A stretch of 64,000 bases of DNA from Psilocybe cubensis. Its lineage: Eukaryota. The stretch covers positions 2,604,001 through 2,668,000 of the forward strand of contig CM039005.1 of the NCBI GenBank assembly GCA_017499595.2, given 5' to 3'. This document shows, piece after piece, positions 1 through 29,209 of the stretch (its first letter is position 1; each line of letters starts with the position of its first letter). The notes beneath the pieces were generated by a model, which saw only the letters and a program-made list of their open reading frames with translations, did not search any database and was not told the origin of the DNA. The position numbers and the translations under genes were made by a program.

Positions 1-692
1 TGGTTCCTCTTTGAAACCGTGCCGCTGCTTGAGGCATACTAATTGTGGTTTGTGACGCAACCCGCATGTCGTATGGATCAGACATAGCTGATGAAAATGC
101 ATTCAAAGTTATTGAATGCGAATATGGGTATGCGGCACCGAACTCTCCCAACATGGACCCTAACTGGGGACTCTGGAACAGACCTTGAGTGCCGTAGCCG
201 TTGTTCCAATTCGTCGGACCCACCAGGACACTTGCATGTCCATCCCGGACAAATGAGTCGCCAGATAGGTAATCCCTGGCAAACCTGTCCTCGTCGTTTG
301 AAACAAGACCTGATTGCTGAGCCAATGCAAAGAGGTCCACGGGTATAGCAGGCTCGCTGCTCGAATGATAGTGGATTGTTAAATCGGGAGGAAAGACAAA
401 ATCTGAGCCAGCGGGCTCCTCGGATATTTGTATCCATATTTCTGGTGGGCCTGCGTGAGTGAAATCAATATCAGTTGAGTATAGCTGCACTTTTCAAATA
501 TAACGAGCCACTACCTGTGGAGATGGAGTTCCTGGCTGCTGGGCCTATGGGAATAGAGGGTGATTTAGCTGTGAGTGAAATCAATGTCAGTTGAGTATAG
601 CTTCGCGTTAGAACTTAATGATCACTACCTGTGGAGGTGGAGTTTCTGGCTGCTGGGCCTGCGGGAGTAGAGGGTGATTTAGCAGCGTCCAT
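1..692 (-). CDS. Family member A, 5' part; runs off the window start
   Basis: ATG at 692. Exons 692-629, 568-515 and 450-<1 with GT..AG introns give an open frame MDAAKSPSTPAGPAARNSTST-AKSPSIPIGPAARNSIST-GPPEIWIQISEEPAGSDFVFPPDLTIHYHSSSEPAIPVDLF...MPQAAARFQRGT. SDFxFP...PxIPxDLF matches member H; the end matches member B. Confidence 0.75.
455..683. repeat. Tandem duplication (~116 bp period) of one exon plus intron inside gene A
   Basis: gtgagtgaaatcaat.tcagttgagtatagct...cactacctgtggag.tggagtt.ctggctgctgggcct..ggga.tagagggtgatttagc occurs at 455-569 and 571-683. Confidence 0.9.
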
Positions 693-769
693 TCTGTATG
701 TATGATTGGGAGAGTGCGTTCGGTGAGTGAGATGAAAAAATTGATGTCTAAAAGTATAGAAAGGTGGCC

Positions 770-1050
770 TTTTAAATCGTCAAGTTGAGGTAGGGTGTGC
801 CTATGTACGTGAGGTTTGGGTCTTTCACTAATTACTCGAATTGAATGTATGGCTGACACACTTGCCGATGCGCAGTGAATGATCGCTGTTCATTTCCGAT
901 TGACATGCATTGCAGTGCACTGGAGTGTACCCATACGTGATCGATACCACTGTTCCAGTCCAAATAATCCAGTTTTATACTGACTCGAGGTTGAAATTTC
1001 ACTTTGAGGCAGTTTGACCGACATCACTTGTTCCTCGCGGCATGCGCATC
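770..1050 (-). promoter_or_regulatory. Conserved family upstream element, copy upstream of A
   Basis: Minus strand reads CCTCGAGTCAGTATAAAA...GCACTGCAAT...AACAGCG...ATTCAATTC...AACCTCACGTAC...GATTTAAAA. The same ordered motifs lie upstream of D, H and J. Confidence 0.7.
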
Positions 1051-3220
1051 ACGCATGCAACGTGGTGGCAGTGAGGTGGATATGCCAGTGCGTGTGAACC
1101 TTTCAAGTCGCCCAATCTCGTCCAATCCGCAACTTATCTAACTGAAAAACAGGGGTCAAATCCCAAACAGTGTAGAACTACCTGCCAGGATCTCGGAGCC
1201 TATCGTCTGTCACGGCCAATTATGATAATTAACCGGATGGCTTGCGTGAGCCAGAGTCAAGTCTTCTGAGCAGCAGCATTATATTATAGTATTCACAATC
1301 GTATGTTTTTCGGCGTATTGGGATGTTGTCTATCCCGACCTCGAACCAAGAATATGCTCGCTTAAATATATTCAGTATCCCAGACAGCATGCCTTTCTCA
1401 TATACCCATTTTTCCGTTCCTATTGCAGTTCCCATACACCGTTCCCTCCCATCTACATGCTCATCTAAGCTACAATCCCAATTCTTAAAATATTGACAAA
1501 CCCCTCAATATATATCTGCTGCGCCTCTCATTGCGTAATCCACAGCAATAAATCAGAGCGGAATCCCGCCCGGGGCTATTAAGCACTGTACGTCCCAGGG
1601 AGTCTTGCTTTGCAGTCTTCTTCCGTGCTGAACGTCCCTGTCGGATTCCATGAAATGCCCGTTTCACGCCCGAGGCCCGGGATATTGCAGAGTCAATATT
1701 TGACGGTTGCGTGGGAGGTGTATCTTCTGGAATTGTGATGGCATAAGTGAACTTTTCACAATATAAAGATGGGTCATTTACATGTGGACATCGTTTCTTC
1801 AGCGCTATTGGCAGTCACTTTGATGGGTGAACTGACGGTATCATAATTTGATACTTCGAGTTTGCCATGACTATCTGCGATGCTAGAAACAAGAACAACA
1901 TGCAGCATATCAGTCAACAGCGACGTTCATTAAAGAAGTTTTCAGACACGTACCTTGACCCACTACCGCTCTGAAGCGGCTCATCCCCCTGGTTTCTCTT
2001 CCTGGACACTCTGTCCTGGCTCTCGTTTGATTTCCTACTCACTCCATGAATCAGACATATATCCAACGAGAGGGAAAAAAGGCAAAAATTTCATACCTTT
2101 GATTTTGGGCTGGATCGCGCCCGTGCGCTCTGGCTGGGGGCAGTATTCCAGTTTCTGGAATCTCCTCCAAATCAAATGTAAAAATTTCAGTCCTAGATTC
2201 TCTCTCCTGGTGAGATAACATTGGCTGTGCTGTTGTGCTGTGGTTACTTCCTCTCTGAAACTGTGCCGCTGCTTGAGGCAGACCGATTGTGGCTTGCGAT
2301 GAAACCCGCCGCGTTTCGTCTGGACCAGACATTACTGTATGGGTGAGAGTGTGTGTTCGGTGAGGGAGATGAAAATATTCGGCACACTGGAGTGTATCTA
2401 TACGTGTCGATACCACTGTTCCAGTCCAAAAAATCCAGTTTTATACCGACTCGTGGACAAAATCTCACTTCGAATCAGTTTGACCGACATCATTCCTTCC
2501 TCGTCCCTCTTGCGGCATGCGCATCATCCACTGCGCAACGTGGTGGAAGTTAGGTGGATATGCGTGTGATGCTTTGTAGTCACGGTCCCCCAATGACAAT
2601 CTCGCCCAATCCGCAACTCATCTCTCTGAAAAACAGGGGTCGAATTCCAAACGGTGTAAACCTATCTGCTAGGTAAATCTCGGAGCCATTCGTATGTCAC
2701 GGCCAATCATGATAACTAACCGGATAGCTTGCATGAGCCAGAGTCCTGTATTCGCAATCGGATGTTTTTCGGCGTCTTGGGGTGTTCCTCTATCCCGACG
2801 TCGAACCAGGAAAATGCTCATTTAAATATACTCAGTATCCCAGACATCATGACTTTCTTAAAATACCTTTCGAATCATAATTCATTTACCCATCTTTCCG
2901 TTCCAAGTGTCGTTCCCGTACACCGTCCCTCCCACTCGCATCTACACGCTCATCGAAGCTACAATCCCGATTCCTACAATATTGACAAACCTCTCAAAAT
3001 ATATCCGCTACACCTCTCATTACATTCTCTACAGCGCCAAATCATATCGGAATCTCCGCGCGGGGAGCCTATACACCGTCCGTCCAATCTCGCTTTGATT
3101 TACAGGCTTCTTCCGGCCTTGCTGAACGTCTCCGTCTGACCCTATTGAACGACGGTTTCGCGCCGGTGGTGACCATTTCAAAGTCAATGTTGGACGGCGG
3201 TGTAGGCTGTGTATCTTCAA
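920..3220. repeat. Direct segmental duplication, ~920-1720 vs ~2384-3220
   Basis: Colinear similarity, e.g. cactggagtgta..., gataccactgttccagtccaaa, gtcacggccaat.atgataa.taaccggat, cagtatcccagaca.catg. Each unit is an upstream element plus the 3' end of the neighbouring paralogue. Confidence 0.85.
1774..2332 (-). CDS. Family member B, internally deleted mini-paralogue (~141 aa) or pseudogene
   Basis: ATG 2332; exons 2332-2097, 2034-1954, 1882-1774. Contains FTFDLEEIPETGILP and SRKRNQGDEPLQSGSGS, which match member D. A stranded, frameshifted terminal segment (SPGR/GFRSDL) lies at ~1545-1725. Confidence 0.55.
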
Positions 3221-3400
3221 GTTCCGGAACCATGGACACTACAAGGGAGTGAAATTGACCAATTGATGATCCTGGAGATGTCGTTCATGGTTTGGATGAG
3301 AGCAAGTCGTCTTGGAAGTGTGATATTGGGTCGGGTCCAACTCCTTAGAGATGGATGTGTAACGGCGTTCACGGTTGAGGTATACGATTGGAGCTATAAA
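3029..3400 (-). pseudogene. Family member C, terminal-exon remnant
   Basis: Encodes EDTQPTPPSNIDF... then, after a frameshift, RKKPVNQSEIGRTVYRLPARRFRYDLAL*. Homologous to the stranded last segment of B; no 5' exons found. Confidence 0.6.
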
Positions 3401-3465
3401 GAATAGGAAATGAAATTCAGTTAATTGACCTCGAGCTTGATGATTGCCAGTGGCGATCCACACAT

Positions 3466-3720
3466 CGACTTCAAGGTAATTGTCAGAACTGTACTTGTTC
3501 GGCTTGACGGCATGATGCGCAGTACATCACATTAGAACTCCGCCTGTTCACGTTCACGGCGGAAGGAGGTGGACTTCGACTTGATGCTGTGACTCACAAT
3601 TTGTACAAACATGCTTCCAGCCACATTCAACTCTAATGATCTGGTTGCCACTCTACCAACGATGTATACTCCCTGAATCGTAAGCAATGTTTAAATTGTT
3701 GGGATTTTTCATGTTTTTGA
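3466..3720. repeat. Dispersed block X, copy 1 of 3 (others ~8671-8945 and ~15838-16070)
   Basis: Shared gttcggcttgacggcat...actccg...atgcttccagccacat...gtaag.aat...ttgggattttt. Confidence 0.8.
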
Positions 3721-4954
3721 ACATGCGTATCATGACGCTAATACGAACAAAGGTGCACTCCTCATCACGAAGCGCATGTACACAACCACAAGATATCGAA
3801 CGAAGCTCGTAGTCAGCTACAGCTAAAACACCACCACCTGGAACAGAAGCTGACACCCACATGACGCAACACCTGGCGCGCTCGTCGCATTCCGTCCGCA
3901 TACAGATACCCGACGTCGATTCCCTTGCCCTCAGGCCTGAGGCGCCGCATTTTTGAACATTTCCCCCGCGTCCAACGCGTGTGTGGGTACGACGCTCAGG
4001 CAGCTTGTAGGGTGGGTGGAGTGGAGCGGTATGGGGTGGATGGGATCATGCTATGTTGTTGATGAGATGAGGGGGTTGGAGCACAGTGCAATAGGTGTTG
4101 CGGAAGCTGAGACGGCAGGTGCGGGTTCGTGTACGGGGTTTGGAGGGAAAGGAACGGAAGGAGTGAGATGGAGGACCGTGACGTACCTGTGTCTGCGCTG
4201 TCTTTATCCACCTCCACCTCCGCCTCTACCAGCGCCAGCGCTCATGTATACCTCGACACATCCCATCTAGCAGATGCCTCCCCACACTCCGTCGACCTCT
4301 TTTTCTGTACATGCACCAAAATGGGGTGGTTCGTGTGAGTGGAGTGTACCGTCGTGGATGCTTACACGTCAATCCTGGAAAGGGGAAGAAGGCAATTATG
4401 TTGATGGGGCGGGAGACAGAGATAAAAGTGACAGAGGCAGGGGTGGAGGGGGACGGAAAGGGAAACGGGGAGGGGAAGAGAGACTGGAGAAAATGAGACG
4501 GAGAAGGATAAAGGGAAATAGTGCAATTCTGATATCAAAGCCAACTCGCATCATAAAACTCTCACCCACCGTATCCGCCCCGCACCTGCAGTGCTACGCA
4601 CACCAATAAAAACAGGGTCTCCTTGGCGTAACGTCCGTGAGGGCCGTCACGTTTCTCAGTGCGGGTATGGTATAGGCTTCGGGGATGCGCTTTTGGGACG
4701 CGCGGAGGAGGCTTCTGGGGGGGCGGTCAGGGACTTGGAGGAGCATGATGAAGAAGAATGCGAGGAGAGATAATGCGCAGGCGATAGTGTGCTTGCTGGC
4801 TGAAAAGCTTCTTAGACACAGACATGTCCGAGTCCGCGGTGAATGCACATGGGAGCTTAGAATGCACATAAATGGGGGATTTGCGCTTTCAAAGAATACT
4901 GGGATCTCCCTCCAGTCTGAGTCTCTGTCGGAGGTATGTCGGAATAGCGCCGCG

Positions 4955-6190
4955 CATTCAAACTCCGCCTATTTATCCCATCGACTGCGCTCGATCGCGT
5001 TTCTTTGTGCAACACTCACCTCAAAGCTTTCGCCACTCTCAAACTCTTTTTGGAGGCGTTCAGTTTAGAGATAAAGCTTAAAGGTTAGCATTTATCTTGA
5101 ATTTCCTCTGTACGCCTCATTGTTGGTTTGCTCATCAGTGACACCATCGCGATGTGCCACACACTTTGCATACCCTGCTAGACCGAGCGTTTCAGGATGT
5201 TCCAGCAAGTCTGAAAACTACGAGTAACTCATGTCAAGACACCTTTACCACCATTACAGAGCGCGATATCTTTCAAGAAATTCATATTCGCCGTCTGGTT
5301 CGTCAGTGGCACCTTTCCTATTAGTTCTCACCGTTCCGGGTTTTATCAGATCATCACCATTACACACGTATATCACGCACGGAAATGGATCTTCAAGCGC
5401 ATCTACGCTCGTCAGCCACTGTGTGTAGGTACATTCAAAGTCTGGGGGCCATTTTGACTCAGCTTGCTCCGGTCGATAGATGTCCACTTGCATCCAAGCT
5501 CCCGTGCCACTGACAACGCATCCCCTCCCACTTTGCAGTAGATTGCACCATATCGGCAGGCGCGCGTATGTGCGTATGTCTATTTCATACATCGTTGGAC
5601 AATGACTTGTTTTCCGAGTCTTCAGTCGCGATGCGATGTGATACGGTATCGTCTACCACGCGCGGGCGTTTTCGGATCATGATGCATGATGATGCCTTTG
5701 TCTGTCTTGTCGGCCCCTTTCATGCATCCAACATCGCTTACACTCCCCCGTCACCCCTTGCTAACTTACCATTGCAGAAACACTCCCAAGAACGGCACAT
5801 GCAAATCACGAATCATATCGCGCCCGGATCTCGAAGGATAACCTCAGGCTTAGACTCTCGCTCCTATTTGCATCACACCTGCGTCCCTGCAAACGGACAC
5901 GCAACGTGTAACTGCAAATGCGATGCCATGATTTTCCTCAGGTACACCTTCGAGTAACGTATATGGAGGATATGATTTCTTGCATGCGCCATTCTACAAT
6001 TTCGTACACTCTCAACAAACTTCCTACCCAACTACATATCACCCGCACGGCTTGTCTTCTGCTCTATCACATCAAGGCAGCGTTTCTCCAATGTCCTCCC
6101 CTCGAGGCAGGACACAGAGCGCGCCTTTGTAGCAATAGACAGATATGCTTGCCGTGCGCAGCGTGCATATTTGTATCTTACAAAGTGGAC
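4955..6190. repeat. Dispersed block Y/Z, copy 1 of 3 (others ~9485-10900 and ~17200-17980)
   Basis: All three copies share cacatcaaggcag...cgcctttg..g..atagacagata. Copies 1 and 2 also share acactcacctca and gtcagtggcac; copies 2 and 3 share aggaagatgcgt...gtg.cttc.ctcg. Confidence 0.75.
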
Positions 6191-9100
6191 AGTTCACTAC
6201 CGTTCCCTGCTGCTACTACCAAGGCACATAGAGGCACATAGTCATAGTCGTAGTCATAGATAGTCAGCTTGTGGTCGCTCAATTCGTCTCAAAACTCTAT
6301 ATATAAACCATATAATTTCAGTACTTTGCTCAGGAGACACCGCGTTCATTCCGAATAAAGTATGCGTGGTATTAGAAGCCCGACTAACGTGTTCTACTAG
6401 ATATTACAACAACGCATTCGGAACGATAACAAGTGCAAGCATTGAAAAAGGGAATACAAATGTATGAGAGAAGGTCTGTCGAGCATAGCTGTAAGTGGCA
6501 ACTTCAACTGGCGACAGTATACGCTGTGATTGTGTTTTTGGATCACGGACGGCTGTGAGTATCTTATCTACCTACTTAGAAAGAAAAAGAAACAACAGAG
6601 AATCTAACGAGAAGTTAGTATATTCATATCATAATGAAAGTAGAAGGCAAACTTACTTAGAATAATGAGGTCAAACGCATCAGATCTCTTGAGACTCGGG
6701 TGTTTGACAGAGCTGGGGGTGCTCTCATAGCGTGGCATCGGACGCGATAGTGTGCTTTGATGTTTATGTTTAAAAGCACTTGATAATTGCCGACTGTATT
6801 CATTTGGAGACTTGTGTGGCGGAATAGATTACCCCCCAAGCCTTGATTATTTTTGTGATGACGAAGGCAGAAGTTTAGTGGAGTTGTATGGGGGTACGAG
6901 TCGTGAACACCTGGGATAACATATTGAGACGATGAATTAAAGAAGCCACAGCTTACACTCACCAGAGAAGAGATCTTTCCACGTAAAGACCTGACGCATA
7001 AGCTATTAACTACTTTAAAACAAAACCAAAACGAATATAAGCGAAAGCAAAAGCAAAAACGAGACAGCTAAGATAGTAAACAAGATTAGGCTTAATGAGA
7101 AACGTTAATTGACGGGCGGACTCACATACGAAAAGGAAACAAGTACTCCAAGATCTGACCTGACAGCGAATGGCTACTCGATTGGTGATCCGATGTATGC
7201 CAATGAGCGAATAGTAGATGCACTGAGTGTGACAAGTTATAATGCGGTTGAAGTGCAGAAGGATAGGCCATTAGAAAAGCAGCTCTGCGGGGGCGAAATT
7301 AGATGGTACTGTCAGAGGGATACTAAACCCACCAGTCATGATCTTTCCAAAGACACGACAGGGCAATGGATATTTCGACTATAAGGAGGATAACTCTATG
7401 TCTCTAACATTGCATCTCAAAAGTTGAAAGACTAATGGACATTAGATACTCACTGAGGGCCCTTTCCACATAATGTTTGTCCATATCCCAACCAAACCGG
7501 TATGATACTACAGCACAAAACAATAAGCAAAAATGCAATAAATCAAACTTGAGGAATTGAAGATGTTGAACATATGTAAGGTTGCATGGGATTGCACCAG
7601 TTGTCCAACACTGTACGGTATGGTCATATCGTCTGAGGCTGCGGAGGAATAAGTCAACCATATCAAACAACCAAAGGGTTAAACTGACCTGACGCCAACC
7701 ACCACTTGCCTAGGCCCACCCAACACACAAGGTCCAAAGCAAGCTTTTATCAATCTCCACCCCTGCGATTCACGGTAGAAGCGACGATGTCCTGCAAATC
7801 TACCGCTACTGCTTAGGGGGGTGGGCGAACCAACCAGCACTCCGTACCTCACCCCCTGGTTTCCACGACCCCCGATTAACAGGGGTGGCGGCGGGGGGGG
7901 TGCCACACATCGAGCGGGTAGGGTCAAATTTCAGCTGCCCCGCATGTCATAAGACAATCGCGCACTCCAGCCTGACACCAGCAGACTGAAGATACGCGAC
8001 CAGGATGGAGTGGTATACTTCTGTGCTGGGCTTCTTGACCGTTGTGTGTGTGTGAGCCTGCATTGTGTGGGGCTGGTTAGTCGCTGTTAGGGAGATGGGA
8101 CAGACGTTGGTTGGTCCAGGGCGGGTTGATGAAATTGCTGTGAGGCGTTGTGAGAGGCGTTTTAACCTAGGCGAGATGGACTTACGCATGTGAGGAGATG
8201 TCAGGCCAATAACAGTGAAGATAGCTCAAGGCGGGATGATGAAAGTGCTACCAAACAATGTTATTAGAAAGTTTGATAAAGGCGGGCTGTCTTTAACTTA
8301 CCTTGGTGGATTGAAGCTAACACAAGGATAAGAGTCGACATCGTCGTCAAAGATATATGCAGTAGGTCTTCCGAAATGTAGTGGGATGACAGTGGAAGAA
8401 AGTCAAGAGACGATGGGGGTCTCTTTTCCTGTCCGTCCGATTCTTATACCCTCTCAGGGCATGTTCTTGTTTGTTTCCAGCCTCTCTCGATCTCTGACAT
8501 GTCATCCGCCACTCCGAAAAGAGAACTTGAATTACTAAAAAGGGTGATTTGTACGTCATCAGTACACGCGCAATACAGGACAAACCGGGATTGGCGTCTT
8601 ATGGGTAAATAACAAACTTACTAGACGAAATATCCTGTTTAAAGCTGGAATCAAGGTCGATAATTACGATGACTTCAAGGTAATTGACGCCCCGTTCGGC
8701 TTGACGGCATAATTCACATGCGTGGTGACCACATTAAAACTCCGATTGTTTACGGCGGAGCGAGACGTGAACGCGACTTGACACGGTGACATGCACTCTG
8801 AACTAGAAACCCCGTTCCCTATATCCCTATGCTTCCAGCCACATCGAATGTGCTACGCCCTTCAAGTTTCACTGATATTCCCAATTGAAATTCACAGATA
8901 AAGTAAGCCTTTGTAAGTAATCTTCTTTGGGATTTTTTATGGTTTACGAGACGTGCTATAGGCGCTGCGCTTCTAAGGTACTACTTGATTCAGTTGCGGT
9001 CATTTATTCATCAGTACCGGTTTCAGAATTCAGTGCACCCGAAGCTGCTTACGGGCTAAAATATACGGATACATTGCAACACAATATTGGTTTTGGGTTT

Positions 9101-11268
9101 TGCGCAATGCGCAGACACGGACCCGGACAGTACGGACTCATCTTCATAGAGCATGGGTACGTAGAGTTTTAAGGATTGTACTCGGAGTCAGCTACAGCTA
9201 GGGAAGCAACACTAGCAACAGAAGCTCACGTCGATTAGGATGGCGATGGCCATGTGAAGATGGATGCAGATGCAGATTCCAACAGGGAACCGGATGATGA
9301 TGCGGGCGGGTGCGGGTTCATATATGGATAAGCAGGTGATGTACTCCGCTGCTGCTTCTGTTTCTGCAGACGGGAGTGGCGGCAGTGGAGGAGGAGGAGG
9401 GTTGGGCACCGGCATAGGTGCGTCGTTGAAGCGGCCTTGGTGCGCTATCATTGTCTGAGGCAATACCCAAGTGCCACGCCACGCTTTCCGTTTATCCCTT
9501 TGATTGGACTGTGCTACTCATTCGCGCCTTTGTGTTGCTTTTGACTGTCGACACTCACCTCACGCCTTAAAGGAGAGGTTCGGTCAGGGCATGCTCCACT
9601 GTGAATCTCTCAAAATTGGTGGAGGCACTGCGATCTTTAGGTGTGTATACAGGTGAGTGTTTCTCTCCATTTACTTACCTCGGAAGCATCCTCATTCATC
9701 ATCACCGTCTGTTGCAGTTTCCTCCCTTCTCAGAAGTGCAATCTTTGCTATGTACCACCCTTGCACATACAGAATAACTCATATACATACAGGCACTGAC
9801 AATGGGCTTCGGTCTTACGGTTTGTGATGGATTTGAAAGAAGAAAGAAGGAACTGATCTTCGTTGTCCGTCATTGGTGCGTCAGTGGCACGGTCCTTCCC
9901 ATTAACTGCCATTGTGTCATCTTTAAATGTTCAGCTGTTCTCACAGTCTACACTCTCGATGCGATTTGTGGCGCACATGGGCGTTTCCAGACCTTGACTC
10001 CTTCGTGTTTGCTCACCTTTTTCTTTGTTCATATTTTCATCATCTCTCCCTTTACATTGTGAGATCCTTTTTCCTCCATTACCCCTACCCTACTTTCTAA
10101 CTGCAGAAAGAATGGCGCATGTAAATCATTTTTGCGCCTCCATCTCGAGATAACCTTGTGCTCGCTTTGTATTGGACGCAAACACGATTACATGTACAAG
10201 TTTGAGTAATTGAATGCACCAAATGCCGTTTGCATGCGCCATAGAGGTTTGTCTTCGGTTTTTATCCACTGTCTCCAATCCTTAGCCACCAGCTCTCCTC
10301 CGATGTGAGCCGCATGGACTGGGACCCCCTTCTTTTGCTAGGAAGATGCGTCAGGGTGTCTTCCCTCGTACTTTGCAACAACATGTGTAAATGATGATGA
10401 TATGCAATATCGATAGCAGCACCCTAAACCACCTTCAGCGCGTCTTTTTTCGGCGCATTCTCATTCTTCTTCGCTGACCACTCTGTCACTGTAACTTAGG
10501 ACTTTGGTTTCGTTATCTATGTATAGCGACGCGCTTTTTCCTTTGGTGCATTGTCTCCCCGCAGCCCCCGTCAGGAATGCCATGATTATAACCATACATA
10601 TATCTATTCAAATTGACCCCTTTTTTCAAAGAATTTTTGTATCACCCGTATGTGCATGTCCTCTTCTGTACCACATCAAGGCAGTAGTTCTTAAAGATCC
10701 GCCCTGGTTTGGTGAGATATAGAACTCGCCTTTGAAGGTATAGACAGATAAACTTGATATGTGTGTGCATATGTGTGTTCTTACCTAGAGGACAATTTCG
10801 CTGTCATTCCCCACCGTGTGTACGGATAACAGTCGATATCAAAATTAATATTGGATGCTTCGAACAGCTGACTTTTCTGAAGCTGTGGAGGTTAAAATAC
10901 ATGTACTTAATAGATTCAACGTGTCTAGTCGTATGGCATTTAAATTCTAATTTTCAAAGTGCTTCCCTTGAATATGCCACTTTTTGACTTCTCATCCATT
11001 TATCTGATTCTTTGCAGAAGCAGATGAAAGATCGCTGAAGACACTCTTGTTTCCTTAATTATCGCACCATGACCAATCACATCGTCGGTGGGAATCAGAT
11101 AAATATATTTGGATGGCATGTGCACGACCAGCATGCTCCTTGCACTCCTAACCTCTTCCCATTAATGCCTCTGCTTCCAAACACTTGGTCCACTGTCCTG
11201 CTATCTACTCAGTTGAGGAACAATGGATGAAATTTTGTATAAAAGTAGAAGCCTATGTGAGTACTTAT

Positions 11269-18254: not shown

Positions 18255-18388
18255 GGAGTTGTATCCACTTGAAAGCGGCTCGTCCCCTAGTTTCCTCTTC
18301 CTGGGATTCCTCACATGGCCCTTGCTTGATTGACTACTCATTCCATGAGTCAGACGTGTATCCAATGTGAGGGGAAAAACCAAATAAA
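18255..18388 (-). pseudogene. Family member F, remnant of the type-1 intron 2 and exon 3
   Basis: Encodes SQSSKGHVRNPRKRKLGDEPLSSG; the intron part (ttggttttcccc.tcacattg.at...gtctga.tcatggaatg..tag) nearly matches D 11537-11665. Confidence 0.75.
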
Positions 18389-20467
18389 CCGCAGAAGCAT
18401 TTCCCGAGACTGATGCACAAGTGATCTCACCCACTTTTACTCCTTCATTTCGGTGTCTTTGTCAATGTATTCGCACCCTTTAAAGGGACAGTAATGCGCA
18501 AAAATCCAGGCACAGGATAACCTTGCATGCGCCCTAGAAAGTGATTTAGTAAAGAAAAAGAATATGCATTATTCCCGAGCACCCTTGAGGTCACCCGTTG
18601 CAACACCCCTAAAAACGGAAAACTACTTCCATCAATTTTAGTTTCTTACAATCATTTTGCGGTACATCAGAGAGATTTCAAGGTAAGTAACAAACTTAAG
18701 TATCTCAAATTGCTTCCATGCAAATAAAAGATGACACAACGAATAGTACATCTCCAACTGAGACAGACTCGGTATTCGAATTTCCTTCGCACCCTTCAAA
18801 TCTGAATAAATTAATTACTGTCAGTAAGCCTGTATCAAGTGATTTGAGACGCAAAAAAGAGCCTACTCGTAGAAGGTACAAATGGAGCCTTCAAAGAGCA
18901 AAATACTCTGCACTAAGTCAATCCAAAACTCAGGTATATTGGTGCATAGCGCAGGGTTAATAACAGAAGGGATAAATGAGTTTCCCGTATAGTATGCGCC
19001 GTCAAAAAATTCAACCATAGACTTTATCCCCCCTTTAACGGGCTAGCATTAAGTATACGGATAGTTAGGATTGAAATGATATAAGGAATGCAAAGTCGTC
19101 ATACTTGAGTGTTGGGTGGTGCAGGGTTTCCTGAAATGACCGAGGGAGTTGATGCAGAGAGAAGACAAGTAAGGTAGGTACCAATCCTCAGCTTCATGTC
19201 TGTAATTGGTCGTGAAGCTTGCTTGTGGGGTACCAACTCGGGAAACTGATAATATGTAGACAAGGTTCGAGCACATCCTTTAAACCCAACCAGTATATAA
19301 GTCAATACAGAAACTGCACTCCAAGCTCCGGATTTCCCGAAGTCTAAGCGCTCATTCAATGACAATGATATGAATCGGTCGCTGTGTTCATGAGGTTTGA
19401 CAATCCATACATTCAAATTACATCAAGGGATCATAATTACACCATTTTGAGAGTATGGTTGGGCCTAAAAACAGCTCAATAGACAGCGTATCAATGAACG
19501 ACATTGGATTGTGCATAGGTCACATTGTGGTTTGAGTAGACTTGCCTTGAAAGCAGATGTATTTGTTGGCGTTTTACCATTTTTAACTTCAAGCCGAACT
19601 TGGCTGAGTTGTATGGGGTCTCCGAGATAAACTCCGATTGGCCCAGCAATTGGCTTGCATTGCTAGTCGCCAAAAGGTTCCCACGCTACCAGTAACCCAA
19701 AGGTGACGTGCAGGGTGCAGTGCATCACCAGAAAGCTTGCAGAGAGTGCCAAAAGCCTGATTCATTATTCCAGTGGGTTTTGGAGAACATTATTTTGATG
19801 TGTACAAGTAAGATTCATCTTCAAGATATGTTCTCCATTCAAGCCGTTGGTTAAGCATCTATTTCCAATTCAAAAACTCTCACGGTCCGCGCTATCAATC
19901 GATCTCAACAGCATTTACAAAATTTTGTATACTCTCAATCCGGCACTATGTTCATCGATTCTATCGACGCGTTGGTATCATTCAAAGACCTCTACCTTAC
20001 TCCATCTTAAATTTACAGACACCTGACTGGACCGATACACACCGATCAGAGGGAGACTTGGGATGGTCACTTTATGGCTGGGGAAGCACAGGTGCGAGTA
20101 ACAATTCACTTGGATTTCATGCCCGTCCAAACTTCGGTAGGAGTTCTATGTCTACATGCCTTGTAATTTCTATCCCACGTCGTGGATACTTGTCCGGTTT
20201 CGGTAGGATGTTTTTTGCCATCCTCCAGTCATTATGCCCCCCTGATCTCTATTCTTTCCTCCGCTGTTTGCCTCGTCATCGACCTCATCAACGGCTCCAA
20301 CAACCGTCAATGGGCCGCGTGCCCCTGGGTACTTTTACCTCCGCTGTAACCGTATAATTTCAGATAGATCTCAGGCGCATGCAAAGTGTTATGATGTACC
20401 TCGCATCTCGATCACGGCTGTGATCTGAATGCCTTTTCATGGTTTCTTCGGATCCGACTGGGCATTT

Positions 20468-21325
20468 TCAGAGTTCTGGGTACCTCTGTGAAGTTCCGAT
20501 GTTTCTATATTCCATCAGTTCCAAATCAACGAGAGCCGGAAAGACAAAACTTACCTTCGAACAGGTATCCGACGGCGCCCAACATGGGTGACCCGCTCGA
20601 CGGTACTATGCCCAGAGCTGTCATATTTGTGGCTGGGCCGTTTGAATCTAGTGTTTTGTGGTAACTCCGGCTCTCCAGTTGAAGCGCAGGAATATGGAGT
20701 ATAGAGTGGCAGATGGTGCGGCGCAACTGGCGCATACACATCCGAGTCGACAGCGCCGCTCTGGTAAGAATCCCTCTCAGACATACGCATCTCAGGCACT
20801 CGGCGTCTCCCTGATGTCTCATATGGCAAAGGACTTGTGTCGAGCGCCTCTCTGGGGATATTGGCAATTATTGCCGTGTTTTGAGTTGGGTGCGTCGCGG
20901 GAGTGCTCGCGACACCGTGAGTGGTTTGCAGTGAATAGCGACTTGGCTCGAATGGAGACGGCTCAACATACGGCGGAAATGATGCTTCCATTGTCGGATG
21001 CATCACCAGAGGTGACACTTGGTCAACATTTGAAGCAAGTAGAGACGTCGACGGGGGATGCTCGCATAGCGACTCTCCTGAATCTGGAAATTTGGTAGAC
21101 GAGAGTAGTGAATCCAGACCATCGGAGTCGAACACTGGGCCAGTAGACAGGATGTCTTCAGGGTTTCTATTGAGGTCAAAGTCGCTAATATAGAAGCCCA
21201 TAGAGGCCATAAAATCTGTAGCAGTGAGGGTCATATCTTGTGAAACATTATGAGTGGCGCATCACCGAAAGTTGGGAATAATACTCACCGTTGATTTGGC
21301 TGGATCCTGCTGTATATTTATCCAT
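20468..21325 (-). CDS. Family member G (probably type 2); 3' end truncated or degenerate
   Basis: ATG 21325 (MDKYTAGSSQIN), a phase-1 intron, then a long S/P/acidic exon (ORF 20551-21234) ending GTTCGAAG|GT exactly as in member I. The next exon meets TGA after ~12 codons and no GxRxD tail is readable. Confidence 0.55.
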
Positions 21326-22486
21326 TGTATTGTGCGAGGCAGAGATGCTAGATGTGCGGTAGTCCTCAACGGGGGAAATAGTTAAAAAGGGATACAAATG
21401 TGCTGAGTAGGATGGGTGCATTTTGCTAATCTTCGAATCAGGATAACAATACTAGTTGAACAGCGAACTCGTATACACAATCTTTAAATAACAAAATACA
21501 GTGTAACAGCATCCGACATGAGTAAAACCGGCCTTTGTTCTTCAAGGCAGGAGTGGCTCAGTCGTCCAGCCTAAACCCGATCTCAATGTCATATCATTTC
21601 CCAGGGTTCTCCCCTTTCTTTTTGGTGTCTTTTAGGTGTTTTGGGACACACTAAACACCGCCAGGCCGCGGTCTCGTGGTATGATTCCTCAAATTTGGGG
21701 GAAATTCCACATCCTTGGGCACAAGATGCATCATCCAAGTTCTCTACCCTGTAACTCCGACGGTGTGCACACAAACAGAAAGGGAACATGGGCATGTAGT
21801 CCTCTTGCAGCGTACTACATGCTGTGCAGTTACTGCACAGCGGGTAAGCGCCAATGTCTATCTTGCTGCCAAAGAGTTCGCAGTTTATGAAACTTACTAT
21901 CGACAATGAAGGAGACTTTAACCTCGTTGAGGGGGTAATTTTGCTGCGTTTTTTAATACCTTAGTGTATGATCCGAATGAATAAAAGTTCGAAGCACTGC
22001 CAGAACATCGTGTGGCTCGAGTGGCGAGGGAAAATCTTGATTAATCTACCCGAGTCTACAATCGACCATTGTCTGATAACATGATCAGCGTGTTAACAAA
22101 GCTTCATGGTTCTGATACCGGTGGCCATTATCGTGATAGTGAGTCTTAGTCAACAACTAGTTTTTCCAAGGCTTCGCGTTATTCCGGTAGATCTTAAAAT
22201 TCCTGAGACGTGCTGAAAGATTCAAGAATCACTCACGCTCCTTCGCAAAGACCTCGGGGTCGGCTCCACTGTCTATCACATCAGAAGGACAATTTCTTAG
22301 AAGATCCTCTGCAAAACTTTCTTGAGGCTGATGCTCCTCGACATTTCATCCAGAGTATGTTGGAAAGCTAATAATATATGATGACCTCACTTGCACCTTG
22401 AGGTTAGCCAGAAGGAGAGTTCAAGCTATGGCACTACTCCTGCCACGATCGAAAAACCATTAATCAAAAGCCTGGCTGCGAACTTG

Positions 22487-22800: not shown

Positions 22801-24199
22801 ATGGAAAGCCGTCCAGCATCTGTAAATGAAGGAGTATCTGGCATCAGCCCTACAGGTAGAGCGTCATTGAATCTCAAGTCAAAGAGTTTACTCACCCAAC
22901 GCAGCGCCGTCCACAGTTAACCCCGAATCTACAAGTCAAAGGAACGTCGCAACGCCACTAAGTCAACCTCTAGTCACGTCCGCTTCGTCAGACTTTATAT
23001 TTCCAGCAAACATGATTCTTCAGTATCCGTCAAGAACCGATCCCATTATACCTCTGGATTTATTTCCATCTCCACAAGAACCACTGTCCCTTTCAGATGA
23101 GGGGCTGACTCTGACCGGCAGATATGGCACTGGAAATTTCTTCTCTGGAACTGAAACTGGAGACGAACTGAACACGTTTGAGCCCAGTGTGGATGACAAT
23201 TCATTCGAGGATCTCCATTCCAAACCAAGATTTAGTGAATTTTCTATTGCAGGTTATGACGACAACGGATATGCCTCTCGTACCAATAACACTATGGATC
23301 CGGATAATGCATATTGTATTAGCTATGCGCCAAAGCCAATGGAAGCCAATGTGTCTCACCCACCGCAAACCCTATTATTTGGATCAAATTTTGCCGAGCC
23401 TATCGTTGATGACCATCGCAGCAACAGCTACACCTCTAGCATCGTGGGTGGTACAGGTCTGGAGCACACATCCCCTGTGTATCCGCCTTTCTCTCCTAGG
23501 TATTCGACCCGCAATATAGCAATTCTTGAATACAATTCAGAGTATGAGCAGCAGAAACACACTCTACTCCCCGTACACCTTGAAGGGACACATTCGCGTA
23601 GACGGCATGATCGTAGTCTGTCAGTCGATGGCATACATTACGAAGAAAGGGGGAAACCAATAACATTCAAGCCGGGAGAGATCCCAATAAACGGGATACT
23701 CCCTAATGTGACGCCGAGGTCTTCCCCAACGCACACTCGAAAGTATGTGATCATTGGTTAATACCCTCTTCTTCGTAGACATGGACTAATCAGATATGAA
23801 CAGGCCCATGAGAATGGATGCAGGTACAACGGCCAATGGAAGAACCAACAGGGGTGTGGCAAGAGGCTGTAATACGAGGTACGCGTCATCAACTGGTGCA
23901 GTGAAAATTTCAACATTGATATACAATATCTCGGGTGCTGCACCTCCAGGTCTACTAAATCCCAAAAGACGCCGGGAAAGAACCGCACGGCGTCCAAGGA
24001 GGTATGTGTGTGCCAGAAGCGCGGTGTCGATGGCAAACGCGAGCCGGTGAAGACATACACGGGGCCTACGAAGAGTCCGGGACAAGGTCATCGCTCTGAC
24101 CTGGCAAATAACTCAGCAAAGAAGTGTGAGCTGTGCCATAGAGAAGAGGTTCTTCTGGAAGAGAGATGGAGGAGCAACAGCACTTTTATTGGAGAGTAG
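22801..24199 (+). CDS. Family member H (type 1): 405-aa protein with C-terminal CxC...PGQGHRSDL...CxxCH module
   Basis: Exons 22801-22855, 22905-23742, 23804-23878, 23950-24199 splice in frame (1218 nt), with the same intron phases and the same 75-nt exon 3 as D. Contains SDFIFP..., ITFKPGEIPINGILP and EVCVCQKRGVDGKREPVKTYTGPTKSPGQGHRSDLANNSAKKCELCHR. Confidence 0.85.
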
Positions 24200-26167
24200 T
24201 CGGTGGAAAGGAGGGTTCTGTCCGAGAAGCACAATGGCCTTGCAGTATATATATATCATGAATACTTGATCATCCAATTTTCTCCGATGACGTGATTGAG
24301 AAGCAGGAGAAACTAGAACTTGATATAAAATACAATTCCAGTGAATCAACATGAATACATGTGCTCACCTGTCGGTAGAATTGTGTATGGGGTACGATTT
24401 GGGTACAATCCACAGCGCTGAGCATCGGTGCTGGTCGAGAACGGTCATTCAGCAGCCGTAGACGTCCGTGAGGATAGCGGAGTGTAAATTATTCCGAGCT
24501 CAGCCTGTCGTCGGATCATATCGGATTTCAGTTTCGCGATGCGTTGAGCTTTTATCCATATTTCCACCATCCGTTGCCCCGTCTTCGCGGGTCTAGTTCA
24601 AGTACACTTAATATTTCGGAGGTGGCTTTCTTCCAGGTAATTCTTAAAACACCTTTTACTCGTCGATACTCAATTTTGTCTCTAACAGAAAGGTAGCATG
24701 CGTATCTTTCACCACCTGTGACAAAGCTTGTGGAATGGAATGTGAGTCTACGACCGCGGTGAGTGCTATTCGCGTCGCATGTGTAACTTTCATGAACAAT
24801 TTATGAAGCCTGAAATTTCTTGGTTACACCTTCATTGACACTAATCTGCTTGGTGTTGAAGCAGTTGAGTCCCCTGTTTTTATTGTCACTTTCCTTTCAG
24901 CTGGCACTAGGTTCCCAGAAATTCTCAGACATGGAAATACGCTGGGTGGCCAACGCATTCACGTTTTTAAAGTTCCACTCTTTATCCCGCTCTACCCATC
25001 CTACTGAGCATATTCTGTCTGCAAGCGTAAGGGCCGAGGTCCGAACGCATTTCAACCATCCCTGATCACGAACTGCGCCGTATTCCCTCCCTGAGTTAAG
25101 CTGGGCATATGATTTGTTAGGCCTTTCTGACCATCTCCCAGGTCCACGCCCTGCGGAACTGAAGCCAATGCACTTAATGCCACTGAGAGTATCCATCCCT
25201 TGTTCCGCCCCACCGCCCTCGATGAGCTCGCTACACTGGGTTTCGAGTCGATACCCACTCAGCTATCCTCTATCTTTATTGCTACAGCATCTTTGAATGG
25301 CCAATGTTTCTCCTCACTTACACTGCTTGACATCGTACCCCTCGGCCTTGGTGTCTTCTGTAATCCCCTGTTTTCTTGGTAACTTCAAAACCTGGAAACC
25401 GTCTATCGCAACTAATGCTTTGCATACTTATACGGAAATGGGTTATGTTGTCTGTAATTTAAGTGGACCCACAGGCTCGGTTGTGTAGGCAGCGTGATAG
25501 TGTCTTTTTGTGCACTACCGCCAATACCTGTGAAACAGGAGAAACCGTTTGTATTGACACTTGACGTTTGAAACGAATACCCCATCTCTTAACATCAAGG
25601 TGCCCACGACGTTGATCTGTTTGAACTTTCTGACGTATCTTGAAGGAATGGTCAGTAGTAAGATTACAATTTGGCGTCTTGTGCACCGGTATCACGAGTG
25701 CATTGAATGTGGTTCTCGTTGCCCAAATTTCTCCTCAGCGGTCCGGTAGTATAGAGACCTACCGTATTACTTTACACCAAAGTTTGTAACGCCACTCCGC
25801 GGCTATGAAATGCATGAGAATGTGTGGTGAACTGCGGAAAACAAAGACATGAGGTGGCAACTTCACCGGAAGTCCATTTCCGGAGACCCATGAGGTCATT
25901 TTAATACTGTTCTGTTATATAGCAATCAAATATTTCCAAAAAATGCTTACAGAGCTGGAATGCGAGAGCGAGCGAGGTAAGGAGCTGTGTAAATTCGATC
26001 GACAGGTTTGTATTGCGTGGATTACTGGCTTGTATTCAGACATGAGACTTGCGCGTGTTAATATGTGTGGTCTGCCTTTATAACAGCGCTTGGACAGATC
26101 CAAATTTCTCCACATAAAACTTTCTTGTCTTCGTAAATCTCTCTAAGCTCTTCAAGAACTGTATCCC

Positions 26168-27466
26168 ATGTTTTCCATCACGTTTGATTTTGCCGATGCC
26201 GCTACACTGGCAGAAGTGACTTCAGCCCTTCAGCTAACATCGACGGGCCTTGAAGGTGAGCGCATCTACAATCTTTTAGGATACACGCTTATCGGGAGTC
26301 TGCAAAGGTTTCTCACTGGAAAACGGGGGCACAACGATTGATCCAAATATATGGTTCATCCCCGACAACCTTTTCCAACAGATGTTTGGCAGTACATTGC
26401 CATTGAATTGGCAAGAATACGTCCCGATCACACCCAATATACACGACCCTCCTCCTCCAGTTCCGCGCCCGTCTAACAGTCACGGAGAACAGCGTCTATC
26501 CGACTCTGAAGGGGCAAATAGTTCTTTCGCTGACATAGAAGCATACCGCGGTACATACCATGCTGAGCATGAGGGAGCTTCGGGCTCAAGCAGCGTCGTA
26601 TATCCTGATACAAAACACTTTGGATGCGACATTCCTGTAGGCCATTTTCCAACTGATCAGCAATTGGTATTCCCAGAAGTGCTGAATGGATCACTTAACC
26701 AACACATGGATATTTTCCACAATGACTATGGTGCGCATCAAATCTACCCAGAGCCACGGATGACCTCCACTGGAGATCCTACCATTCCGCCATTCCAAGA
26801 AGCATCGAACCAAACATTTCTTGGAGGGTATCCTAACCCACGAGTATCTGTACATCCATATTCTGGCGACACGGAAGAAGGAAAGACAGAAAGAAACGAT
26901 AACATATTCGACTACGCAGAACACCATAAACATTCAGCTTCCGGGATGAGTCCCGTTGAGCAGAATGATGGCACATCTGCCTCAACAGCAGTTCGAAGGT
27001 AATATGTTTGTTTCTATCTTTCATACCACTATGGCTGATGGAAGATATGGTAGTAACATGCAAAGGCCTCAAATTGGCATGTCGCCAAGTGGTGAAGGTG
27101 ATGCAGGCAGTCTATACCAGACGCAGACTGCGAGACATCCAAAGGGCAGCACAAGGTACGCAAGCATAGTCTTCAATCCTCAGAAGAGAATGACAGGTAT
27201 TCTGTTCAAGATTCCAAATCAGACTAGCCAGGGGGACGTTTGATGCGCACCATCTTCCCGCTCTAGATGCGGCTGCAAGAAACGGGGCGGTGTTTGAGAG
27301 GGATGATGGAGAATTGCAAAGTGTAGGAAGAAAGACGAGACTAATTGATGGACGGCGTCAACGTCAAGCTGCAAGAACGCGCTTAGACACAGTAACCGGA
27401 AAACCAATGAGTCAAGGTCTACGGCCTGACTGCGAGGGATATAAACCTAAAACTCGTAGAAAGTGA
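26168..27466 (+). CDS. Family member I (type 2): 4-exon protein ending RLDTVTGKPMSQGLRPD
   Basis: ATG 26168; exons 26168-26255, 26308-26998, ~27054-27155 and ~27211-27466 give an open frame. The C-terminus RQAARTRLDTVTGKPMSQGLRPDCEGYKPKTRRK aligns with E. The last acceptor is uncertain by a few codons. Confidence 0.75.
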
Positions 27467-27865
27467 GCACATATTCAAAGAAATTGACCAGCTAGACTCT
27501 ACTAACAAGTTATCCATGCACCTAGGCGTTCATAACTGTTTCATCATGGACTCCGACGCGCTTGTGAGATATATACGAGTGAGCTAGGAGGCTTGATAGG
27601 TTGACGAGACGACATCGATGGAAGGGAAAGAATCCGAATATAGTCCGAGATAATCAATCAATCACATGAACTATATAATCAATATGCTTATCTTATCGTA
27701 CCACAACATTGCCTCGAGGAAAATCTATTAAAGATTGTATTTAGTATAAAAAAAGACTGTTGATGAATAAAAACATGTTTTGGTGTGGACTGCCCTTTAA
27801 ATTTATGCACCCGGAATTTTGGCGGTTAGATGGATAATATATGAATCCCTCAAAGTGTCCTTCAA

Positions 27866-28086
27866 ACCTCGAGTCAGTATATAAATAGAGTCTTTGAGCA
27901 AGCAAGGTAGATTTTAGAATCATGTTCTACAGTGGCCTGCGCTCAAGCACTGCATTTCACTTTGAGGTGAACAGCGCTCACCGCTGCGCGTGGAAAATAT
28001 GCGACATCCACTGAATCAATTCACGTAACTGGTGTAGGACTCACGTCCTCCACAAGATGGTAGTCCAACTTTGACTATTGAAAGTC
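27866..28086 (+). promoter_or_regulatory. Conserved family upstream element, copy upstream of J
   Basis: CCTCGAGTCAGTATATAAA...GCACTGCATT...AACAGCG...CCACTGAATCAATTC...ACTCACGTCC...TATTGAAA (proximal box mutated). Confidence 0.7.
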
Positions 28087-28165
28087 TCGTTCAAATGGCT
28101 TTGCCCTTACAGTTGTTCGTCTCTCACCTAACTCTATCTGCGCATAATTGCACCACATAACAAAT

Positions 28166-29209
28166 ATGACCAGCCAGACACCCTTTGTGGTTGAAAGAGT
28201 AGCATGCATCGACGCTACAGGTGGGGAGTAATTACATCTTAAATCAGTGACATTACTCATCCAACGTGTTAATTGCTTCAGCACCTTCCGTCAACCAACA
28301 ATCAACAAGTCAAAGCAATAATGTCGGTTCCAATGGTTCAACATCACCAATTCAACTGTCTACCATTTCAGCTTCGTCCGACTTTATATTTCCAGCTAAG
28401 ATGACTATTCAATAACCACTCAGCAACAGCCCGAATATACCTTTGGGTTATTTTCACCTCTCCAAGAGTCACAGTCCCTTTCTGACACGGGTTTCGCTTT
28501 CTCAGGGCATTATGAGACCAGCCGTCCCCTCTACGGCGCTGGAGTCGGAGACGGACTGAACACGTTGGAACACATTGAGGATGACAACGCATCCGACACA
28601 TCAGATTATAAGCCAAAACAGACTATGCACCCTGTCCTCCGCGACGGTATACAAGGATCCGGAATGTATGATCCTGACCTGAAGCCCAATGCCACATATT
28701 TTGAAGAAAGACAACGCAAACAAAAAACATTCAAGCTGGGAGAAATTCCGATACACGGAAATTTCCTTAATGCGATGCTGGAGTATTCCCCAACCTATGC
28801 TTGAAGGCATGTAATATTTGGTTTTAGTCCTCTTTGTTTATAGGCATCAAGTAATTGAGAATCAATAGGCCCCTGCAATAGGAAGAATCCAATGAACAGA
28901 CGAAGAGTGACATGATCAAGGAGCTTGATTCAAGCGACGGTCATCCAAGGGATGAGTTCACACACATGTATCAAGGATGTCACTGACAGTCAATAATTAC
29001 CGCGGTGTGCCTCTAGATATCCCAAGGCATCAAAGAGGTACACAAAAGACACCACGTTATGCATTTGTCAACGACGCGGGGCGGATGGGAAGCGTGGACC
29101 AGTGGAGAGCTACACTGGGACGCCAAAAACTCCAGGAGGGGGTTATCGGTCTGACCTGGCAAACAACTCGGCCGTGAGATGTACCCTTTGCCATAGAGTA
29201 CTAGATTAA
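28166..29209 (+). pseudogene. Family member J (type 1), pseudogene closely related to H
   Basis: Same 55-nt exon 1 as H. TAA at 28413, a frameshift shortly after, TGA at 28802 (CGA in H) and damaged donors. The last exon still reads LCICQRRGADGKRGPVESYTGTPKTPGGGYRSDLANNSAVRCTLCHRVLD*. Confidence 0.85.

What the first reader, a model, noticed from the sequence alone, without database searches (positions are those of the whole stretch)
1..29209. Array of ~10 divergent paralogues of an unrecognised, probably nuclear, protein family
Seen: hand-splicing gives intact or near-intact genes A, D, E, H, I, truncated B and G, and relics C, F, J. They have similar architecture (short phase-1 5' exon, long S/P/acidic exon, phase-2 introns near the 3' end). 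Conservation is limited to short islands: SDFxFP..PxIPxDLF (A, H, J; weaker in D), TFxxxE[IV]PxxGxxP (B, D, H, J), RKRKxGDEPLxSG (B, D, F) and a C-terminal G-x-R-[S/T/P]-D core (B, E, H, I, J; altered in C and D). The ORF track hides this because the conserved parts sit in small exons. Inference: a disordered acidic N-terminus, an NLS-like segment and a small basic C-terminal module resemble transcription or chromatin regulators. Birth-and-death in one cluster is the pattern of recognition or conflict loci (allorecognition, drive) or stage-specific regulators. Function is unknown.
Basis: partly seen in the sequence, partly recalled or inferred. Interest (0 to 1): 0.85.

Follow-up and report, generated by a model that had tools for sequence, protein, structure and literature searches.

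The report
Orphan zinc-module gene array in Psilocybe
A magic-mushroom chromosome carries a real cluster of fast-evolving duplicated genes, found in no other organism searched, whose intact copies end in a small conserved cysteine module that probably binds zinc and look like nuclear regulators, but nothing yet shows what they do or that they are conflict genes.

Summary
The array is real but smaller than claimed. The host is Psilocybe cubensis. A, B, D, F, H and J are proven paralogues by protein and promoter DNA; C joins through DNA shared with B; two more copies lie on the same chromosome. E and I are paralogues of each other, only weakly tied to the core; G rests mostly on intron phases.

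The finding missed the best-conserved part: D, H and J end in a 51-residue CxC-x37-CxxCHR module under purifying selection (pN/pS 0.36-0.54, sense frame only). The claimed shared GxRxD core is not significant across E, I, B. Pfam, PDB, the Atlas and 1.84 billion proteins gave no credible relative outside P. cubensis.

Contigs from two RNA-like runs carry spliced ANTISENSE transcripts over H and probably G; no sense-spliced H contig was listed.

Best reading (0.5): a young birth-and-death family of stage-restricted nuclear regulators with a disordered acidic N-terminus, a basic NLS-like exon and a zinc-ribbon-like module. Drive or allorecognition has no direct support (0.12). The scan noted the Cys module before on this same stretch, not on other DNA.

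The parts
1..692 (-). Gene A, 5' part (exons 692-629, 568-515, 450 to beyond the window edge); exon 1 tandemly duplicated; SDF island at 415-323
   Evidence: (P0006, 291 aa)
693..1100 (-). Family promoter block with conserved TATA-like element; homologous copies upstream of B, D, H, J and about 590 bp upstream of E
1771..2332 (-). Gene B, 5'-truncated (141 aa), keeps the TFxxE and RKR..GDEPL exons
1488..1727 (-). Decayed 3' region of B, homologous to C; marginal likeness to the Cys-module exon
2977..3218 (-). Relic C (3' region only; part of an 872-bp, 73% identical duplication with B tail plus A promoter)
11269..12570 (-). Gene D, intact, 372 aa, exons 12570-12513, 12451-11671, 11611-11537, 11473-11269
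11281..11433 (-). Cys module of D (CxC-x37-CxxCHR)
13490..15006 (-). Gene E (JR316_0009297), open frame, phases 1,1,2; paralogue of I; tie to the core family weak
15590..15717 (-). Sixth copy of the family promoter element, upstream of E (E's own, or left from a deleted gene)
18196..18418 (-). Relic F: NLS-like exon and flanks, 79% identical to D over 120 bp
20289..21325 (-). Gene G: same intron phases (1,2,2), premature stop at 20470-20468; membership unproven
21084..21406 (+). Probable spliced antisense RNA over the 5' end of G (skip of about 21150-21203; G's own intron 1 retained)
22801..24199 (+). Gene H (JR316_0009300), intact, 405 aa, exons 22801-22855, 22905-23742, 23804-23878, 23950-24199; this allele lacks 38 bp near 24147 relative to another allele
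23990..24142 (+). Cys module of H
23360..24316 (-). Spliced antisense RNA over H: canonical minus-strand GT..AG intron 23924-23867, skipped in an RNA-like contig and present in a DNA contig of the same allele
26168..27466 (+). Gene I (5' part of JR316_0009301), intact 378-aa model, phases 1,2,2; paralogue of E
28166..29209 (+). Pseudogene J (frameshift, stop, GC donor) with an intact Cys-module exon
3468..18002 (.). Three partly overlapping copies of a non-coding spacer block (about 3468-6211, 8670-10916, 15822-18002) that mark the duplication units

Best explanation
A young, Psilocybe-restricted family of nuclear regulatory proteins expanding and decaying by tandem and inverted duplication. 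Each intact copy has four parts. (1) A 280-residue disordered, acidic, S/P/T-rich region with short hydrophobic motifs that probably dock onto cofactors. (2) A short basic exon acting as nuclear localisation signal. (3) A C-terminal 51-residue module whose four invariant cysteines probably bind one zinc ion in a small three-stranded, zinc-ribbon-like fold that contacts DNA, RNA or a chromatin protein. (4) A shared TATA-containing promoter, so copies are probably switched on together in a narrow stage and covered by antisense RNA in other tissue. Shown: paralogy, gene structure, decay, purifying selection on the module, antisense splicing over H. Inferred: zinc binding, nuclear location, regulatory role, stage-specific expression.
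For: Paralogy by protein z-scores and by promoter DNA: A-D 67% over 548 bp, A-J E 1e-14, A-H E 6e-9. Four Cys plus His-Arg are invariant in D, H, J at 39-63% identity. pN/pS is 0.36, 0.50 and 0.54; 0 of 1000 bootstraps have pN >= pS; third-position mismatches 28 versus 13 and 13 of 51 for H-J; lowest ratio in the sense frame. Net charge runs from negative in the N-terminal half to +6 to +9 per 40 residues before the module, and no 19-mer exceeds hydropathy 1.26. Whole-protein pLDDT is 0.35-0.37, which fits disorder but also reflects a shallow alignment. The AlphaFold2 model of D's module has three strands, pLDDT 67.6. In the H allele of run X1 the module region has 0 differences in 222 bases, against 10 in the 507 bases upstream.
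Against: No homologue of known function. The structure is only moderately confident; the H-based model had pLDDT 46.5. The best fold match, Z 3.2, is below background. The strict activation-domain rule hit only E, and the relaxed rule also hit 4 of 7 controls. H lacks the RKRK exon motif (one RRRH only). A's public model ends before any Cys module, and P0003 lacks the CxxCH half. No sense-spliced contig for D, E, H or I was among the 32 pieces listed, with 385 more not shown.
Confidence: 0.5

Rival explanations
1. Nearly neutral churn: one ancestral gene with a modest or dispensable role sits in a duplication-prone region; most copies drift and decay, and the antisense RNA is transcriptional noise.
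For: Of the 7 proven members in the window, 4 are truncated or relics (B, C, F, J) and A's public model lacks the module. Outside the module and the SDF island, dN/dS is 0.5-0.75 and mostly not significant. Antisense transcripts cover 17.6% and 6.3% of genes in two Agaricomycetes, and young genes show expression variance read as possibly non-adaptive (PMC8893723, passages). Other lineage-specific arrays were noted in this genome (unchecked).
Against: The module is constrained across three deeply diverged copies (synonymous sites near saturation), so several copies stayed functional for a long time; promoters are kept in 6 copies.
Confidence: 0.25
2. Conflict locus: a nuclear meiotic driver or self/non-self recognition family, with paralogues as incompatible variants, like wtf or tdk drivers.
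For: Many copies, much pseudogenisation and rapid divergence are listed as signatures of tdk drivers, which act on chromosome segregation (PMC12930445, abstract and sections 8, 13). Of the 8 listed variants in H 23524-23824 seen in run X1, 7 change an amino acid. DNA runs hold versions under 90% identical over parts of the array.
Against: No PF08593, HET, NACHT or kinase match for any member scanned; no membrane helices as in wtf. A 7:1 ratio is within neutral expectation. The divergent versions can be the second cluster (JR316_0009360, _0009377). No dN/dS above 1 was seen in any sense-frame comparison.
Confidence: 0.12
3. Domesticated or decayed transposon protein: the Cys module is the DNA-binding or accessory domain of a mobile element (for example KDZ-associated CxC or Mutator SWIM type).
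For: CxC-type motif; dispersed copies on one chromosome; repeated spacer blocks, one of which has transcribed look-alikes elsewhere (16500-16740).
Against: No transposase, CxC1-7 or SWIM Pfam match in 22, 9 and 23 segments scanned; conserved introns, phases and promoters typical of host genes; few copies found.
Confidence: 0.08

Closest known systems
Zinc-ribbon-like small beta domains (best structural rows: a 52-residue human mitoribosomal large-subunit chain, 3j7y_1, and the aRF1 C-terminal minidomain, 4af1_A)
   Same: About 50 residues, three strands, two pairs of Cys at the ends; Z 3.2 (rmsd 3.1, 46 aligned) and Z 3.0 (rmsd 2.4, 46 aligned). That these chains are zinc-ribbon-like is recalled, not from a call.
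   Different: Scores are below the background Z of 7-8; 6-9% identity; CxC rather than CxxC first pair; 37-residue spacer; fused to a long acidic disordered region.
Fungal C-terminal-DNA-binding transcription regulators with acidic disordered activation regions (general architecture; recalled)
   Same: Acidic low-complexity region with short hydrophobic motifs, basic NLS-like run, small basic Cys-rich terminal domain.
   Different: Cys spacing fits none of Zn2Cys6, GATA, C2H2, copper-fist or SWIM patterns (patterns recalled); no Pfam match; activation-domain rule not discriminating.
tdk killer meiotic drivers (PF08593/IPR013902; PMC12930445)
   Same: Multi-copy, high pseudogene share, fast divergence, about 350-400 residues, most conserved part at the C-terminus.
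   Different: No PF08593 match; Tdk proteins have two folded halves, whereas these are mostly disordered with a Cys module; no drive data.
Lineage-specific young gene families with natural antisense transcripts in Agaricomycetes (PMC8893723)
   Same: Species-restricted, fast-evolving, overlapped by spliced antisense RNA.
   Different: Here a constrained, undescribed Cys module and a shared promoter give the family a testable core.

Membership tests
Core array family (A, B, C, D, F, H, J) | Significant protein or promoter/exon DNA homology to D or H | tested here: met
   C only through DNA shared with B
Core array family, for E and I | Significant homology to D/H/J, including the C-terminal module | tested here: inconclusive
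   hhalign 0.1%; z <= 1.0 except A-E 3.7; family promoter 590 bp upstream of E; H tail on the E/I profile, 10 of 970 control tiles; I has the same intron phases
Core array family, for G | Significant homology to any member | tested here: inconclusive
   z <= 1.8; no promoter hit; same phases 1,2,2 and a 9-residue in-frame match to the module, 5 of 172 control tiles
tdk meiotic drivers | C-terminal PF08593 (IPR013902) domain | tested here: not met
   No PF08593 hit at E <= 1 or 10 for exons or models of A, D, E, G, H, I, J; definition from PMC12930445 section 8
tdk meiotic drivers | Biased transmission by killing non-carrier progeny | not testable with these tools
   needs crosses
wtf-type poison-antidote drivers | Multiple transmembrane helices (recalled) | tested here: not met
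   max 19-mer hydropathy 0.51-1.26 in 7 of 7 models
HET/NLR allorecognition genes | HET, NACHT/NB-ARC or repeat sensor domains (recalled) | tested here: not met
   no such Pfam match
HET/NLR allorecognition genes | Balanced, deeply divergent alleles | tested here: inconclusive
   cannot separate alleles from the second cluster; one 6.9-kb contig differs by 70 letters (1%), one 827-bp contig by 41 (5%)
Zn2Cys6, GATA, C2H2, homeodomain mating-type factors | Family-specific DNA-binding domain profile and Cys spacing | tested here: not met
   no Pfam match at E <= 10; spacing CxC-x37-CxxCH
KDZ-transposon CxC domains and SWIM | Pfam CxC/SWIM match and a linked transposase | tested here: not met
Zinc ribbon fold | Three-stranded sheet with two Cys knuckles binding one zinc | tested here: inconclusive
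   model pLDDT 67.6, three strands; best Z 3.2; Foldseek no E <= 0.001; metal binding untested
Acidic transcriptional activators | 39-residue tile meeting equation 1 of PMC10550315 (a rule built on human factors) | tested here: inconclusive
   strict: 1 of 9 family models (E), 0 of 7 controls; relaxed: 7 of 9 versus 4 of 7 controls

The most novel reading that the evidence does not exclude
The array encodes a new class of zinc-module nuclear proteins that act as meiosis- or spore-stage conflict factors (drivers or nuclear-compatibility determinants) in a mushroom, silenced in other tissue by spliced antisense RNAs; E, I and G are older members that replaced or lost the module, so the head-to-head array would hold ten variants of one system.
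Probability: 0.1. Interest if true: 0.85.

Novelty: new variant of a known kind. Interest (0 to 1): 0.42.

Why it matters
The CxC-x37-CxxCHR module is a small, constrained domain with no match in any library searched, so it is a cheap target for a possibly new zinc-binding fold. If the proteins are stage-specific nuclear regulators, they show how mushrooms gain species-specific regulators. If they bias transmission, they would be a candidate driver family in a mushroom-forming fungus. Against this, species-restricted tandem orphan families are common in Agaricomycetes, and no function is shown.

Tried and rejected
No whole genome is held, so copy number genome-wide was not counted. No RNA holder listed on record; the RNA nature of X1 and X2 is inferred from intron skips.

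Family libraries: Pfam gave no array hit near a cut-off in 14 array segments among 22, 9 of 9 and 23 segments. PHROGs 0 of 7, NCBIfam 0 of 6, PDB sequences 0, Rfam 0. The ESM Atlas gave no usable feature hit, TM <= 0.37.

Homologue searches: hmmsearch of 1.84 billion representatives gave 3 hits; P0004 was rejected as a tandem-repeat protein without the motif. Metagenome scans gave 0 of 223 and 1 of 44 candidates; L001 was rejected as an 11-residue match in 63% GC DNA.

Folds: the H-based model (pLDDT 46.5) had no match at Z >= 2. The D model had 65 chains at Z >= 2, none at Z >= 5, and no Foldseek hit at E <= 0.001; this shows neither a known nor a new fold.

Alternative readings: an unspliced phase-0 start for E was dropped in favour of the public model. 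The end of X1 contig 1 at 20345 fits both a sense acceptor of G and a plus-strand donor, so it is not counted as sense splicing. The antisense RNA over H has only short ORFs, at most 99 aa. A recalled likeness of the GxRxD motif to short motifs of viral Rep and phage proteins had no support in PHROGs or the viral fold library. Depth differences were not read as copy number.

Papers: 0 for the locus tag JR316_0009300; searches listed nothing on this family (listings only). No complex prediction was run, because no binding partner is claimed.
Full report
Host and setting. The last exon of gene H finds 2 proteins among 57 candidates, both Psilocybe cubensis hypothetical proteins: P0001 (JR316_0009300) and P0002. 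No whole genome is held, so the work rests on the window, public protein models and four laid runs.

Observation. Splicing by coordinates gives open frames with canonical introns for D (372 aa), H (405 aa) and I (378 aa), each with intron phases 1,2,2. E is open with phases 1,1,2 (P0007). A is cut by the window edge; its public model is 291 aa. My A, H and I models match the public ones letter for letter. B is 5'-truncated. G has the 1,2,2 pattern but a stop in its third exon. J has a frameshift, a stop and a GC donor. C and F are fragments. A to G lie on the minus strand and H to J on the plus strand, head to head.

Which genes are paralogues. Smith-Waterman scores against 100 local shuffles give z 13.8 for A-B, 9.6 for A-H, 8.9 for B-D and 17.2 for D-H. 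Small profiles recover members left out of them: J by the SDF island (E 3e-9) and the TFxxE island (E 8e-4), and F by the NLS exon (E 4e-7). DNA agrees. Upstream regions of A, B, D, H and J are homologous (A-D 67% over 548 bp; A-J E 1e-14; A-H E 6e-9), and C shares an 872-bp duplication with B. So seven loci are tied together here. Two more lie on the same 3.3-Mb contig: JR316_0009360 (J-like) and JR316_0009377 (91% identical to P0002). E and I are a separate pair: z 5.2, a shared 17-residue C-terminal motif, and 64% identity over 214 bp of 3' flank. Their tie to the core is weak: profile-profile probability 0.1%, one marginal score (A-E z 3.7), a family promoter copy 590 bp upstream of E, and I's intron phases. 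G has no significant match to anything (z <= 1.8). The claimed common GxRxD core does not hold statistically: B's copy is out of frame behind two stops, and a frameshift-aware scan puts B at 7 of 566 control tiles, C 20 of 522, G 5 of 172, I 111 of 970, E 257 of 970. B, C and G are plausibly decayed module exons; that is suggestive only.

What the finding missed. D, H and J end in a gap-free 51-residue module, CxC-x37-CxxCHR, with invariant G-x-D-G, Y-x-G and P-G-x-G in the spacer. Amino-acid identity is 39-63% while synonymous sites are near saturation: pN/pS 0.36, 0.50 and 0.54, and 0 of 1000 bootstraps reach pN >= pS. The ratio is lowest in the sense frame, which has no stops in any pair; H-J mismatches are 13, 13 and 28 of 51 by codon position. 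The region was picked for being conserved, so the size of the effect is inflated, but the frame control is not affected by that. The A-H SDF island is also constrained (dN/dS 0.31); the other islands give 0.4-0.75, mostly not significant. An earlier first-stage note on this same stretch named the module; I had found it before looking.

Relatives. A profile of the module against 1,835,955,588 representatives gave 3 hits: two P. cubensis proteins and one unrelated repeat protein. A family profile gave 4 of 4592 candidates: three named P. cubensis proteins and gene A itself. The E/I profile gave 2 of 3050, E and I themselves. Pfam, PHROGs, NCBIfam, PDB sequences, the ESM Atlas and two metagenome scans added nothing. 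The profiles were thin (2-7 rows), and annotated proteomes of sister species may be missing, so 'restricted to P. cubensis' means in these collections.

Structure. AlphaFold2 on D's module gave three strands, pLDDT 67.6, pTM 0.45; the H-based model was poor (46.5). The best of 48,161 solved chains had Z 3.2 (rmsd 3.1, 46 aligned), below the usual background; Foldseek found nothing at E <= 0.001. A zinc-ribbon-like arrangement is a hint, not a result. Whole proteins run from acidic to basic and have no membrane helix. The acidic activation-domain rule of PMC10550315 (passages) flagged only E strictly, and the relaxed form also flagged 4 of 7 control ORFs, so it gives no real support.

RNA. Four runs were laid on 11000-29400, 18.4 of the 29.2 kb. 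No holder is on record as RNA. Contig 4 of X1 skips 23867-23924 with no letters between. That stretch is a canonical GT..AG intron on the minus strand, antisense to H. The same contig keeps H's own intron 2, and DNA contig 18 of X4, the same allele, has no gap there. Contig 12 of X2 stops at the same donor, and contig 10 of X2 stops at another minus-strand donor at 22895. X1 also skips about 21150-21203, ending at a plus-strand acceptor antisense to G, while keeping G's intron 1; its donor is not clear in the window's letters. X1 and X2 come from one study. No sense-spliced contig for D, E, H or I was among the 32 pieces shown, with 385 not shown, so expression of the genes is neither shown nor excluded. 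Antisense transcripts are common and poorly conserved in Agaricomycetes (17.6% and 6.3% of genes in two species; PMC8893723, passages). The laid runs also show that the window's H allele lacks 38 bp at 24147, giving a longer tail, while another allele stops just after the module as D and J do. Versions under 90% identical occur over D and H-J in both DNA runs; they may be the second cluster rather than alleles.

Mechanism. Most likely (0.5) these are nuclear regulators: a disordered acidic region with short docking motifs, a basic import signal, and a small zinc-stabilised module that binds nucleic acid or chromatin. A shared TATA-containing promoter suggests co-expression in a narrow stage. 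Unequal crossing-over between repeated spacer blocks would explain the gain and loss of copies. Shown are paralogy, decay, constraint on the module and antisense splicing over H; inferred are zinc binding, location, role and timing. Rivals are near-neutral churn (0.25), conflict (0.12) and transposon origin (0.08).

Comparison with known systems. It is not a member of the Tdk family (PF08593 not matched; definition from PMC12930445, abstract and sections 8 and 13), nor of wtf, HET/NLR, Zn2Cys6, GATA, homeodomain, KDZ-CxC or SWIM families (family patterns recalled). It works most like a lineage-specific regulator family. The locus tag JR316_0009300 is in 0 papers of the library, and six other searches listed nothing on this family (listings only). 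No supplements were read; annotation tables of Psilocybe genome papers could hold expression data that I did not see.

Verdict. A real, undescribed, species-restricted array with a constrained new-looking Cys module; seven proven members rather than ten; function unshown. Novelty: new variant of a known kind. Interest 0.42.

Noticed in passing
window 30714-31384 (-), about 32834-33284 (+), relic at 18869-19015 (-): Three copies of a small secreted-looking protein; the first has weak Pfam hits to beta/gamma crystallin (E 0.0035) and inhibitor I36 (E 0.019), both below cut-off; two copies form a 74% identical inverted pair and the relic sits inside the array.
   Followed up: partly
window 36978-39007 (+): ABC transporter segments (ABC_tran E 1e-22, ABC_membrane E 1e-27); the gene looks incomplete, and its 5' flank 36519-36977 has an inverted copy at 62508-62933.
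   Followed up: no
window 4556-4751 and 16500-16765: Two copies of a short element inside the spacer blocks; RNA-like contigs from other loci match 16500-16740 and run on into unrelated sequence, so it is probably a dispersed, transcribed repeat or relic gene family.
   Followed up: partly
window 6200-8550 (-): Lies between a D-upstream-like piece (8480-8552) and a D/F-downstream-like piece (6035-6211), where another copy would be expected, but no family motif or Pfam match was found; possibly a replaced or fully decayed gene.
   Followed up: partly
window 13503-13580 and 24000-24143: Run X2 holds contigs about 88% identical to the E tail and to the H module (P0002-type), so E as well as H has a further copy or divergent allele.
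   Followed up: partly
window 26168-28801 (+): The public model JR316_0009301 fuses gene I to part of pseudogene J; probably an annotation error.
   Followed up: yes
window 46912-48013 and 51829-52744: Tandem repeat arrays with units of about 180-190 bp and about 130 bp, 70-80% identical.
   Followed up: no
window 44467-45213 (+): ORF with a DUF4604 match (E 6e-18).
   Followed up: no
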